Shown here piece by piece: positions 5,328 through 5,426 of a DNA stretch of 64,000 nt. The notes beneath the pieces are model-generated. The model saw only the letters and a list, made by a program, of their open reading frames with translations, had not been told where the DNA came from and made no database searches. Each line of letters starts with the position of its first letter. Position 1 is the stretch's first letter. Location of the stretch: assembly GCA_023061495.1 (NCBI GenBank), contig GCA_023061495.1_3643.1. One strand, given 5' to 3'. The DNA is from Escherichia coli (GTDB taxonomy: Bacteria > Pseudomonadota > Gammaproteobacteria > Enterobacterales > Enterobacteriaceae). A program made the position numbers and the translations under genes.

Positions 5328-5426
5328 GCTGGGTAAGCCCTTTGGCAAGGGCGAGGATTTTTAATCCTGAAAATAGACGAGGTAGTCGTTGAATACATAG
5401 GTGGTTCGATTCCATCACCTAGCACC
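5328..5426 (+). tRNA. atypical tRNA-like element (possible pseudo-tRNA or unusual type II tRNA; anticodon reads UUU in the standard register)
   Basis: Good acceptor (gctgggt/acctagc), D-arm (gccc/gggc) and T-arm (ggtgg-TTCGATT-ccatc), but only a 4-bp anticodon stem with loop UUUUUAA and a 31-nt variable region; no encoded CCA. Confidence 0.4.

What the first reader, a model, noticed from the sequence alone, without database searches (positions are those of the whole stretch)
5328..5426. Atypical tRNA-like element inside the tRNA cluster
The acceptor stem, D-arm and T-arm are well formed, but the anticodon stem is only 4 bp with a U-rich loop (UUUUUAA, anticodon UUU in the standard register), the variable region is 31 nt (longer than Ser/Leu/Tyr arms), and no CCA is encoded. 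It could be a decaying tRNA, a tRNA with an insertion, or a tRNA-like regulatory or decoy RNA.
Basis: seen in the sequence. Interest (0 to 1): 0.55.

Follow-up and report, generated by a model that had tools for sequence, protein, structure and literature searches.

The report
Conserved five-arm tRNA-like phage RNA
The odd "tRNA" in this rV5-like coliphage is not a decaying gene: it belongs to a conserved family of tRNA-shaped RNAs that keep a tRNA body but carry a shortened, changeable anticodon arm and an oversized fifth arm, and its function is still unknown.

Summary
Window 5328-5426 (+) folds into a cloverleaf with normal acceptor, D and T arms, a 4-bp anticodon stem with loop UUUUUAA, a 31-nt variable region and ...A-CC-U at the 3' end. 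It lies in a seven-gene tRNA operon of an rV5-like phage (Vequintavirus).

It is not a pseudogene. Homologues occur in Vequintavirus, Avunavirus, Seunavirus, Mydovirus, Henunavirus, Justusliebigvirus (phi92-like) and one Schitoviridae phage. In 27 distinct sequences, 98.9% of 648 pair cells are standard pairs. Fourteen of 24 pairs change on both sides, including the tertiary 19:56 elbow pair (G:C to U:A).

The body is as conserved as the phages' tRNA-Thr. The "anticodon" loop differs between lineages (UUU, UAU, UCA with A33, or 8-nt loops holding UCC/GCC). The stem is always 4 bp between invariant G's. The linkers around the extra hairpin (GAAAA... and ...AAUAC) are nearly invariant.

Best reading (moderate confidence): a tRNA-derived RNA, matured like a tRNA, that acts as a tRNA mimic rather than an ordinary decoder. 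The suspected setting is the phage-host conflict over tRNAs, because an Rnl1-type RNA ligase, a kinase and a phosphoesterase lie just upstream. A non-canonical decoding tRNA (Lys here, opal suppressor elsewhere) is not excluded.

The parts
4772..4800 (+). sigma-70-like promoter (TTGACA-17-TAATAT) upstream of the tRNA operon
   Evidence: Consensus scan, 10 of 12 matches. Function is inferred only.
4859..5672 (+). tRNA operon: Arg(UCU), Tyr(GUA), Ser(UGA), the element, Thr(UGU), Met/Ile(CAU), Pro(UGG)
   Evidence: ARAGORN and Rfam.
5328..5334 (+). acceptor stem, 5' strand (GCUGGGU)
   Evidence: Pairs with 5417-5423. All 7 pairs are 100% standard in 27 sequences and 5 show changes on both sides.
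5335..5336 (+). positions 8-9 (A8 A9); A8 is invariant where tRNAs have U8
   Evidence: Column 8 is invariant A and column 14 invariant U. This suggests a swapped 8:14 pair (inference).
5337..5352 (+). D arm: stem GCCC/GGGC with loop UUUGGCAA; it can also be drawn as a 6-bp stem with 4-nt loop UGGC
   Evidence: 4 pairs, 3 with changes on both sides. U14:A21 and U15:A20 are invariant, so the 6-bp form is untestable. The loop G at 5345 covaries with the T-loop C at 5407.
5353..5353 (+). invariant G between D stem and anticodon stem
   Evidence: Invariant column 26.
5354..5368 (+). anticodon-like arm: 4-bp stem AGGA/UCCU and 7-nt loop UUUUUAA (UUU in the standard register; U32 and A38 could pair)
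   Evidence: The 4 stem pairs are 100% standard, 2 with changes on both sides. The 32:38 position is C-G in 12 sequences, U-A in 10 and unpaired in 5. The loop is 6, 7 or 8 nt in other lineages.
5369..5376 (+). 5' linker GAAAAUAG (G and AAA invariant across the family)
   Evidence: Invariant columns 43 and 45-47.
5377..5389 (+). extra (variable-region) hairpin ACGA-GGUAG-UCGU
   Evidence: Minimum-free-energy folds give a hairpin here in 18 of 19 homologues folded; L070 is drawn as two short hairpins. Stem sequence and length differ, with compensatory changes: ACGA/UCGU versus ACGG/CCGU in Av-05, GCC/GGC versus GUC/GAC, UCCCCC/GGGGGA versus CCCUCC/GGGAGG.
5390..5399 (+). 3' linker UGAAUACAUA (AUAC invariant, with the A before it in at least 85% of sequences; further invariant A's downstream)
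   Evidence: Invariant columns 78-81, 83 and 85.
5400..5416 (+). T arm GGUGG-UUCGAUU-CCAUC with a canonical T loop
   Evidence: 5 pairs, 100% standard. The T-loop position equivalent to C56 changes to A exactly where D-loop G19 changes to U: G:C in 19 sequences, U:A in 8, none unpaired.
5417..5426 (+). acceptor 3' strand ACCUAGC, discriminator A, then CC (followed by U, so CCA is incomplete)
   Evidence: Most other lineages encode U73-CCA; Av-05 has U-ACA and phi92-like phages U-UCA.

Best explanation
The element is a functional, tRNA-derived, five-arm RNA. It belongs to a family shared by rV5-like, PVP-SE1-like, phi92-like and a few other phages of Enterobacterales.

It is transcribed within the phage tRNA operon. 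Because it keeps a 7-bp acceptor stem, a canonical T arm and the D-loop/T-loop elbow, it is presumably cut out by RNase P and 3' processing, and given or repaired to a CCA end, like its neighbours.

It is probably not an ordinary adaptor in translation. Its anticodon arm is one base pair short in every member. The loop is 6, 7 or 8 nt and differs between lineages. Selection instead acts on the tRNA body and on two purine-rich single strands (GAAAA... and ...AAUAC) that flank a freely varying extra hairpin.

The mechanism I consider most likely is tRNA mimicry. The mature RNA would occupy or divert a protein that recognises tRNA shape plus an anticodon-like loop. The most plausible target is a host tRNA-targeting defence nuclease or another tRNA-handling enzyme, with the loop re-tuned in each phage lineage (UUU in this phage).

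Shown: the structure, its conservation, the covariation, and the operon and gene context. Inferred: maturation, lack of normal decoding, and the decoy role.
For: Structure is real and selected.
- On a MAFFT alignment of 14 sequences, 22 pairs are 100% standard, 9 change on both sides, and 0 of 500 shuffles reach the observed values; slid controls give 32-44% paired.
- With 27 distinct sequences, 98.9% of 648 cells pair and 14 of 24 pairs change on both sides.
- The tertiary elbow pair 19:56 switches G:C to U:A with no exceptions.

Conservation and spread.
- Between-genus identity is 61-91% for the element and 59-83% for tRNA-Thr.
- The copy in the Schitoviridae phage UTK0002 is 88% identical to the Henunavirus copy, while their tRNA-Thr genes are 67% identical. 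That points to horizontal transfer of a self-contained useful unit.

Arguments against ordinary decoding.
- The stem is 4 bp between invariant G's in all 27 sequences.
- Loops are UUUUUAA, UUUAUAA, C/UAUCAAA (A33 instead of U33), GUGAUA, or CCAUCCAG-type 8-mers.
- Canonical tRNA-Gly(UCC) coexists with the UCC-type element in phage Ro1. Canonical tRNA-Lys(UUU) coexists with the UCA-type element in phi92-like phages.

Extra conserved module: invariant linker bases around a variable hairpin.

Context of tRNA conflict.
- A T4 Rnl1-family RNA ligase, a P-loop kinase and a metallophosphoesterase lie at window 3-1938. In phage MaxTheCat they are annotated as RNA ligase, polynucleotide kinase and phosphoesterase.
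- Phage tRNAs are known to neutralise PARIS and Retron-Eco7, the latter through a longer variable loop (PMC12409363; PMC12673091).
- The element carries U36-A-A-U-C40 followed by C41. This is the AriB recognition sequence with the A41C change that 'substantially inhibits' cleavage.
Against: - No expression, processing, charging or binding data exist for this RNA, and the papers I searched do not describe it.
- The loop C/UAUCAAA is conserved across very divergent lineages. In this phage the loop UUUUUAA with U33, A37 and discriminator A73 fits the E. coli Lys identity set (my own knowledge). tRNAscan-based annotations call it tRNA-Lys. Real decoding is therefore possible.
- rV5-like phages have no other tRNA-Lys.
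- A stoichiometric decoy would have to compete with a very abundant tRNA pool.
- Phage V18 has lost the element, together with tRNA-Tyr and tRNA-Ser, and is viable. The element is therefore dispensable at least on laboratory hosts.
- No partner protein has been identified.
Confidence: 0.45

Rival explanations
1. It is a translationally active but non-canonical tRNA. In rV5-like phages it would be a tRNA-Lys(UUU), possibly one that escapes or replaces host tRNA-Lys cleaved by anticodon nucleases. In Henunavirus, phi92-like phages and UTK0002 it would be an opal (UCA) suppressor. In Seunavirus and Mydovirus it would be a Gly-type or four-base decoder. The large extra arm would be tolerated as in class II tRNAs.
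For: - It sits in a tRNA operon with canonical acceptor, T and D features, and CCA is encoded in most lineages.
- Five lineage groups (rV5-type, Av-05-type, Henunavirus/UTK0002, phi92-like, the L073 contig) have a 7-nt loop with A37 and A38.
- This phage has U33, UUU, A37 and A73, and records annotate it tRNA-Lys or tRNA-sup(tca).
- The discriminator differs together with the loop: A73 with UUU, U73 with UCC/UCA.
- The triplets match A-ending codons, as for the other phage tRNAs.
- The loop AUCAAA is conserved across distant lineages.
- The precedent of T5 tRNA-Lys against PARIS, and the neighbouring tRNA-Thr(UGU), which is another AriB target.
Against: - The anticodon stem has only 4 Watson-Crick pairs in all 27 variants.
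- A33 replaces the near-universal U33 in every UCA-type copy.
- Loop length is 6 or 8 nt in many members, and the 8-nt loops can close by a C-G pair.
- The 'anticodon' is the least conserved part of an otherwise strongly conserved orthologue.
- Canonical Gly or Lys tRNAs are present alongside the element in some phages.
- This reading does not explain the invariant linker strands.
- ARAGORN, and Rfam at E <= 0.01, fail to call the element in most lineages.
Confidence: 0.3
2. It is a cis-acting structural element of the polycistronic tRNA precursor. It would serve as a tRNA-shaped punctuation or stability module that guides RNase P and RNase E processing of its neighbours, with no role for the mature RNA.
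For: It always lies inside tRNA clusters, directly abutting another tRNA: 6 nt before tRNA-Thr here, 2-8 nt after a tRNA in other genera. A run of U's follows it in rV5-like phages.
Against: - Its neighbours differ between lineages (Thr, Ile/Ser/Arg-like, Leu, Asn) while the element stays constant.
- Punctuation would not need a conserved elbow pair, conserved linkers, an encoded CCA or a conserved AUCAAA loop.
- It moved alone into a Schitoviridae tRNA cluster.
Confidence: 0.1
3. It is a decaying tRNA pseudogene or a chance cloverleaf.
For: Some pipelines label it tRNA-Pseudo or tRNA-OTHER. The Rfam score is low at 33.7 bits. V18 has lost it.
Against: 98.9-100% of pair cells are kept, with compensatory changes in every helix and in a tertiary pair. 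Conservation equals that of tRNA-Thr. Within Vequintavirus the flanks vary while the element is nearly invariant.
Confidence: 0.03

Closest known systems
Class II tRNAs and selenocysteine tRNA (Rfam RF00005, RF01852)
   Same: Cloverleaf with a long extra arm. The elbow is formed by D-loop GG and the T loop. It lies in a tRNA operon. The UCA-type members have the loop CAUCAAA (compare CUUCAAA in tRNA-Sec) and a D arm that can form 6 bp with a 4-nt loop; their best Rfam hit is tRNA-Sec at 39 bits.
   Different: The acceptor/T helix is 7/5, not 8/5. The anticodon stem is 4 bp rather than 5 or 6. A8 replaces U8. The discriminator is U or A rather than G. The extra hairpin is joined by 7-10-nt conserved single strands instead of 1-2 nt. 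The score is below the tRNA-Sec gathering score of 47.
Phage T4 stable RNAs species 1 and 2 (rnaC, rnaD)
   Same: Small stable RNAs of unknown function encoded at the end of a phage tRNA cluster. rnaC has a T-arm-like hairpin and paired ends.
   Different: No sequence similarity and a different architecture (119-139 nt, no D arm, no anticodon-like arm). Model R1 gives no match to them; its only weak hits in that locus are T4 tRNA-Thr and tRNA-Leu.
Phage tRNAs that neutralise tRNA-cleaving defences: T5 tRNA-Lys/Thr/Asn against PARIS AriB, SP15 tRNA-Tyr against Retron-Eco7
   Same: They are encoded in phage tRNA clusters and differ from host tRNAs in the anticodon stem-loop or in a longer variable loop. 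Lys(UUU) and Thr(UGU) are AriB targets and are adjacent here. The element has UAAUC-C, matching the protective A41C change (PMC12409363; PMC12673091).
   Different: Those are canonical, decoding tRNAs that replace the cleaved host species. This element has a shortened anticodon arm and a lineage-variable loop, and no experiment links it to any defence system.
Bacillus cereus tRNA-Other (pseudo-tRNA that does not act in translation)
   Same: A tRNA-shaped RNA that standard tools call 'tRNA-Other', with a regulatory rather than decoding role (abstract of PMC3399842).
   Different: It is chromosomal and bacterial, unrelated in sequence, and has no enlarged variable region.
allo-tRNAs (8/4 and 9/3 cloverleaves)
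   Same: Non-canonical tRNAs with long variable arms and unusual anticodons, some of them in phages (abstract of PMC5389517).
   Different: allo-tRNAs are defined by a 12-bp acceptor/T branch split 8/4 or 9/3. This element is 7/5.

Membership tests
canonical elongator tRNA (Rfam RF00005) | 7-bp acceptor stem, 4-bp D stem and 5-bp T stem | tested here: met
   Acceptor and T stems are 100% standard pairs and the D stem 98.1% in 27 sequences, with compensatory changes.
canonical elongator tRNA (Rfam RF00005) | D-loop/T-loop elbow (G18 G19 with psi55 C56) | tested here: met
   The T loop is UUCGAUU or UUAGAUU. The 19:56 pair covaries, G:C in 19 sequences and U:A in 8.
canonical elongator tRNA (Rfam RF00005) | 5-bp anticodon stem with a 7-nt loop and U33 | tested here: not met
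   The stem is 4 bp in all members. Loops are 6-8 nt. All UCA-type copies have A33. Only the rV5 and Av-05 types have U33.
canonical elongator tRNA (Rfam RF00005) | score at or above the Rfam gathering score (29 bits) | tested here: inconclusive
   The window copy scores 33.7 bits. The Seunavirus, Mydovirus, Av-05 and phi92-like copies get no tRNA hit at E <= 0.01.
canonical elongator tRNA (Rfam RF00005) | U8 pairing with A14 | tested here: not met
   A8 and U14 are invariant. A swapped pair is possible but is only inferred.
canonical elongator tRNA (Rfam RF00005) | aminoacylation and codon reading on the ribosome | not testable with these tools
   Needs acid-gel northern blots, tRNA-seq or reporter assays.
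selenocysteine tRNA (Rfam RF01852) | 13-bp acceptor/T helix (8/5 in bacteria) | tested here: not met
   It is 7/5. The model's outer acceptor pairs are mismatched in the alignment.
selenocysteine tRNA (Rfam RF01852) | UCA anticodon | tested here: not met
   The window copy has UUU. UCA is present in Henunavirus, UTK0002, phi92-like phages, and loci L073 and L001.
selenocysteine tRNA (Rfam RF01852) | 6-bp D stem with 4-nt loop | tested here: inconclusive
   U14:A21 and U15:A20 could extend the stem, and the minimum-free-energy folds draw it that way, but both pairs are invariant.
selenocysteine tRNA (Rfam RF01852) | score at or above the gathering score (47 bits) | tested here: not met
   The best score is 39 bits, for L085 and L087.
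allo-tRNA | 8/4 or 9/3 acceptor/T configuration | tested here: not met
   7/5 in all sequences.
bacterial Y RNA-like YrlA (Rfam RF02553) | match to the family model | tested here: not met
   Only 14.6-25.4 bits against a gathering score of 69, and those hits span neighbouring tRNAs.
T4 rnaC/rnaD | sequence or structure homology | tested here: not met
   Model R1 gives no match to T4 rnaC or rnaD; its only hits in the T4 locus are weak ones to tRNA-Thr and tRNA-Leu. The folds differ.
tRNA pseudogene | loss of pairing and relaxed constraint compared with functional tRNAs | tested here: not met
   98.9% of cells are paired. Conservation equals that of tRNA-Thr.
anti-defence phage tRNA (PARIS or Retron-Eco7 type) | resistance to, or neutralisation of, a tRNA-cleaving effector | not testable with these tools
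   There is only a sequence lead: U36AAUC followed by C41.

The most novel reading that the evidence does not exclude
A previously unrecognised class of phage RNA: a tRNA chassis with a fifth arm, whose anticodon-like loop is swapped between lineages (Lys-like, Ile-like, Gly-like, opal/Sec-like). On this reading it acts as a tunable molecular decoy or inhibitor for host enzymes that attack or handle specific tRNAs. It would be an RNA-based anti-defence factor that spreads horizontally between unrelated phage families.
Probability: 0.25. Interest if true: 0.8.

Novelty: new variant of a known kind. Interest (0 to 1): 0.6.

Why it matters
Phage-encoded tRNAs have recently been recognised as counter-measures to tRNA-cleaving bacterial immunity. 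This element is present in a few hundred sequenced phages used for therapy and typing, including rV5-like, PVP-SE1-like and phi92-like phages.

It is annotated inconsistently: as tRNA-Lys, tRNA-OTHER, tRNA-Pseudo, tRNA-TERM, a hypothetical protein, or nothing.

Recognising it as one conserved family, with a defined architecture and a covariance model, would:
- give a clean target for deletion and tRNA-seq experiments;
- correct misleading annotations such as 'suppressor tRNA' and 'tRNA-Lys';
- possibly reveal either an RNA decoy against tRNA-targeting defences or a structurally new kind of decoding tRNA.

Tried and rejected
1. ARAGORN's own structure (stem AUUUU/AAAAU, 8-nt loop, four-base anticodon AUCC). 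Only 45.9% of cells pair across the family, no better than the shuffled or slid controls. Rejected.

2. My first reading, a 5-bp anticodon stem closed by a covarying U-A/C-G pair with a 5-6-nt loop. It was weakened when the Henunavirus, UTK0002 and phi92-like copies showed C.A at that position. The arm is better described as 4 bp plus a 6-8-nt loop.

3. An S-turn/loop-E module (AAUA/GAA) at the base of the extra hairpin. It is not conserved in L070, L073 or the phi92-like copies. Dropped.

4. Antisense targets of the conserved linkers within the window. For CCTATGTATTC only the element itself matches. For TATTTTCAGG there are 11 hits at one mismatch, with only 3 of 100 shuffles reaching 11 (mean 5.8), but no exact site other than the element itself. 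No convincing target emerged.

5. A bacterial counterpart. The pattern scan of 185,579 genomes gave 35 hits, none scoring above ordinary tRNAs with model R1.

6. Homology to T4 rnaC/rnaD and to other Rfam families, including ribozymes and YrlA. None found.

7. Small intron or split-gene readings. No contiguous excision restores a canonical 17-nt anticodon arm plus a short variable loop (inspection).

8. Literature searches for a description of this RNA or for transcriptomes of these phages found nothing relevant.

9. A DNA-level promoter inside the element. No consensus match was found there.
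Full report
**1. The observation**

The window is an rV5-like coliphage (Vequintavirus). The region 4800-5750 is 99.4% identical to phages slur16 and slur12.

ARAGORN finds seven genes on the + strand between 4859 and 5672: Arg(UCU), Tyr(GUA), Ser(UGA), 'tRNA-???(atcc)' at exactly 5328-5426, Thr(UGU), Met(CAU) and Pro(UGG).

Rfam's tRNA model matches 5328-5424 at 33.7 bits, above the gathering score of 29. The alignment has a 26-nt insertion in the variable region and a flagged non-pair at 27:43.

Read from the sequence, the molecule is:
- GCUGGGU (acceptor 5' strand), AA
- GCCC-UUUGGCAA-GGGC (D arm), G
- AGGA-UUUUUAA-UCCU (anticodon-like arm)
- GAAAAUAG-ACGA-GGUAG-UCGU-UGAAUACAUA (variable region)
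- GGUGG-UUCGAUU-CCAUC (T arm)
- ACCUAGC (acceptor 3' strand), A, CC, then U

The unconstrained minimum-free-energy fold is this five-arm cloverleaf, with z = -3.1.

**2. It is a family, not an accident**

blastn against phage records and pattern scans of IMG/VR and of metagenomes recovered homologues in the following groups:

| Group | Example phages |
|---|---|
| Vequintavirus | more than 110 records at 95-99% identity |
| Avunavirus | Av-05 |
| Seunavirus | NINP13076, 4MG, LNA4, EspYZU14, SPLA5a, GAP31, FENT2 |
| Mydovirus | KB57, Ro1, VIK251 |
| Henunavirus | Hena1, pEp_SNUABM_01 |
| Justusliebigvirus (Stephanstirmvirinae, phi92-like) | EmilieFrey, KKP_3264 |
| Schitoviridae | Salmonella phage UTK0002 |
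| Uncultured contigs | several |

A covariance model built from 14 sequences (R1) scores every copy at 68-124 bits. Ordinary tRNAs score 25 bits or less.

A pattern scan of 185,579 bacterial and archaeal genomes gave only chance hits.

The records annotate the locus inconsistently. Labels seen are tRNA-???(atcc), tRNA-Lys, tRNA-OTHER, tRNA-Pseudo, tRNA-TERM/tRNA-sup(tca) and 'hypothetical protein'; many records have nothing. ARAGORN calls only the rV5 type. At E <= 0.01, Rfam misses the Av-05, Seunavirus, Mydovirus and phi92-like copies.

**3. Structure and constraint**

On a MAFFT alignment of 14 distinct sequences, the 21 cloverleaf pairs plus the tertiary 19:56 pair are standard in all 308 cells. 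Nine pairs change on both sides, 0 of 500 shuffles reach the observed values, and slid controls give 32-44% paired.

With 27 distinct sequences, 98.9% of 648 cells pair and 14 of 24 pairs change on both sides. This alignment is fitted to the model, so it leans towards the structure, but it agrees with the MAFFT result.

Per-helix results:
- Acceptor positions 3:70, 4:69, 5:68 and 6:67, D-stem positions 11:24, 12:23 and 13:22, and T-stem positions 49:65 and 51:63 all show compensatory types.
- D-loop G19 and T-loop C56 switch together to U and A (19 versus 8 sequences, no exceptions). The L-shaped elbow is therefore under selection.

The extra hairpin forms in the minimum-free-energy folds of 18 of the 19 homologues I folded, although it differs in length and sequence; L070 is drawn as two short hairpins instead. 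Compensatory changes are visible in it: ACGA/UCGU versus ACGG/CCGU, GCC/GGC versus GUC/GAC, UCCCCC/GGGGGA versus CCCUCC/GGGAGG, and CUCUC/GAGAG versus CUCGC/GCGGG.

Invariant unpaired bases are A8, U14-U16, G18, G26, the G after the anticodon stem, AAA in the 5' linker, AUAC plus two further A's in the 3' linker, and the T loop.

Between genera the element is 61-91% identical. The same phages' tRNA-Thr(UGU) is 59-83% identical. Within Vequintavirus the flanks vary while the element differs only at position 4, G.U versus A-U. A pseudogene is excluded.

**4. The anticodon-like arm**

In every member the arm is an invariant G, a 4-bp stem (RGGN/NCCY, 100% paired, two pairs covarying), a loop, and an invariant G.

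| Lineage | Loop | Length | Triplet in standard register |
|---|---|---|---|
| rV5 type (this phage) | UUUUUAA | 7 nt | UUU |
| Av-05 type | UUUAUAA | 7 nt | UAU |
| Henunavirus, UTK0002, phi92-like | CAUCAAA or UAUCAAA | 7 nt | UCA, with A33 |
| Metagenome contig L073 | UAUCAAA | 7 nt | UCA, with A33 |
| Metagenome contig L065 | GUGAUA | 6 nt | none assigned |
| Seunavirus, Mydovirus | CCAUCCAG, CCCUCCAG, CCAGCCAG, CCUUCCAG, CCCUCAAG | 8 nt | UCC, GCC or UCA |

The first and last loop bases can pair (U-A in 10 sequences, C-G in 12) or cannot (5 sequences). My initial idea of a covarying fifth pair therefore does not hold for the whole family.

ARAGORN's alternative helix, which gives the 'atcc' call, is not supported: 45.9% of cells pair, equal to the controls.

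The arm is thus always one pair short of a canonical tRNA. The near-universal U33 is A in the most widespread and probably ancestral UCA type. The triplet is the least conserved part of the molecule between lineages, although AUCAAA is conserved among four very divergent lineages.

The UCA type resembles tRNA-Sec in its loop, its long extra arm and a D arm that can form 6 bp with a 4-nt loop. Its best Rfam hit is tRNA-Sec at 39 bits. However, it has a 7/5 rather than 8/5 acceptor/T helix, U73, and a score below the gathering score of 47.

The discriminator is U in most lineages (C in two sequences) and A only in the rV5 type. From my own knowledge of E. coli identity sets, A73 with UUU fits Lys, and U73 with C35/C36 fits Gly. 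That is a hint that charging may matter, not a test.

**5. Context**

A strong sigma-70-like promoter (TTGACA-17-TAATAT, 4772-4800) precedes the operon.

Upstream, at window 3-1938, lie three genes:
- a T4 Rnl1-family RNA ligase (PF09511, E = 4e-15)
- a P-loop kinase (AAA_33)
- a metallophosphoesterase

In phage MaxTheCat they are annotated as RNA ligase, polynucleotide kinase and phosphoesterase. By analogy with T4 Pnk/Rnl1 (established knowledge), this looks like a tRNA-repair module, which implies that these phages meet anticodon nucleases.

Published work shows three relevant points:
- PARIS AriB cleaves E. coli tRNA-Lys(UUU), Thr(UGU) and Asn(GUU) at U36AAUC|A41.
- A41C substantially inhibits that cleavage, and T5 tRNAs neutralise PARIS (PMC12409363).
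- Retron-Eco7 cuts tRNA-Tyr in its variable loop and is neutralised by a phage tRNA-Tyr with a longer variable loop (PMC12673091).

The window element reads U36-A-A-U-C followed by C41 and sits next to tRNA-Thr(UGU). This is a lead only.

Canonical tRNA-Gly(UCC) coexists with the UCC-type element in Ro1. Canonical tRNA-Lys(UUU), Asn and Thr coexist with the UCA-type element in phi92-like phages. rV5-like phages have no other tRNA-Lys.

Phage V18 carries a deletion that fuses the 5' half of tRNA-Tyr to the 3' part of the element. The element is therefore dispensable for growth on laboratory hosts.

The UTK0002 copy is 88% identical to the Henunavirus copy, while their tRNA-Thr genes are 67% identical. 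This indicates horizontal transfer.

**6. Interpretation**

*Shown:*
- a conserved, structurally constrained, tRNA-derived five-arm RNA gene family in phage tRNA operons

*Inferred:*
- maturation by the tRNA machinery, from the intact acceptor, T arm and elbow and the encoded CCA in most lineages
- lack of ordinary decoding, from the short stem, A33, the 6-8-nt loops, the variable triplet and redundancy with canonical tRNAs

My preferred mechanism (confidence 0.45) is tRNA mimicry directed at a tRNA-recognising protein, most plausibly within the conflict over tRNA-cleaving defences. The lineage-specific loop would act as a specificity element, and the conserved linkers would form part of an enlarged core or a binding surface.

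The main rival (0.3) is a non-canonical but active tRNA: Lys in this phage, an opal suppressor in others. A purely cis-acting processing element (0.1) and a pseudogene (0.03) are unlikely. The confidences do not sum to one, because some quite different function remains possible.

**7. Comparison and novelty**

The closest known things are:
- class II tRNAs and tRNA-Sec, which have a similar shape but fail the membership tests
- T4 rnaC/rnaD, which share the genomic niche and the unknown function but are not homologous
- anti-defence phage tRNAs, which share the niche but are canonical decoders
- B. cereus tRNA-Other, a non-translational pseudo-tRNA (PMC3399842)

I found no paper that describes this family. 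The searched library is incomplete, so prior description cannot be excluded. I rate the element a new variant of a known kind, namely a tRNA-like or non-canonical tRNA.

Noticed in passing
window 3-1938: A T4 Rnl1-family RNA ligase (3-869, minus strand; the gene runs off the window start), a P-loop kinase (894-1376, +) and a metallophosphoesterase (1279-1938, +). Together they look like a tRNA-repair module, 3-5 kb upstream of the tRNA operon.
   Followed up: partly
window 5230-5327: The 98-nt spacer between tRNA-Ser and the element folds into a closed multibranch structure. It has an 8-9-bp closing stem (UUGUUGACC/GGUCAACA) and internal hairpins, with z = -2.3. It could be another degenerate tRNA-like or small RNA.
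   Followed up: partly
window 5025-5138: The 114-nt AU-rich spacer between tRNA-Tyr and tRNA-Ser forms a long imperfect hairpin (z = -2.5). It is unexplained.
   Followed up: partly
window 4772-4800: A near-consensus sigma-70-type promoter (TTGACA, 17 nt, TAATAT) lies 59 nt upstream of the first tRNA. This suggests transcription of the tRNA operon by host RNA polymerase.
   Followed up: no
L003 1455-1545 (phage V18): A deletion joins the 5' half of tRNA-Tyr to the 3' part of the element. It removes tRNA-Tyr, tRNA-Ser and the element, so V18 is a natural knockout that could be used for phenotype tests.
   Followed up: partly
phage records MG0656xx: Eighteen records named 'Campylobacter phage' are 98-99% identical to rV5-like coliphages over this region. 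They are probably mislabelled or come from contaminating coliphages.
   Followed up: no
L010 1122-1198; L012 1124-1198: In Seunavirus and Mydovirus the tRNA directly upstream of the element is itself odd: ARAGORN calls it tRNA-???(agat) and tRNA-???(ga). Records annotate the gene at this position differently in different phages, as Ile, Ser or Arg.
   Followed up: no
L089 1380-1458; L012 1560-1638; L002 2629-2701 and about 1800-1890: There are further tRNA-like sequences in these clusters that ARAGORN does not call: Rfam tRNA hits of 38.6, 34.9 and 53.4 bits, and in Av-05 a tRNA-like sequence without a D arm and with a CUUCUAA loop. A conserved stretch, GUGCAUUAGCUCAGAUUAUUUGA..., follows the element in Seunavirus and Av-05.
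   Followed up: no
L087 1488-1595 (Salmonella phage UTK0002, Schitoviridae): This N4-like podovirus carries a copy of the element that is 88% identical to the Henunavirus copy, inside its own tRNA cluster. That implies horizontal transfer between unrelated phage families.
   Followed up: partly
L014 803-1195 (Raoultella phage Ro1): An HNH homing endonuclease gene is inserted between tRNA-Thr and the element.
   Followed up: no
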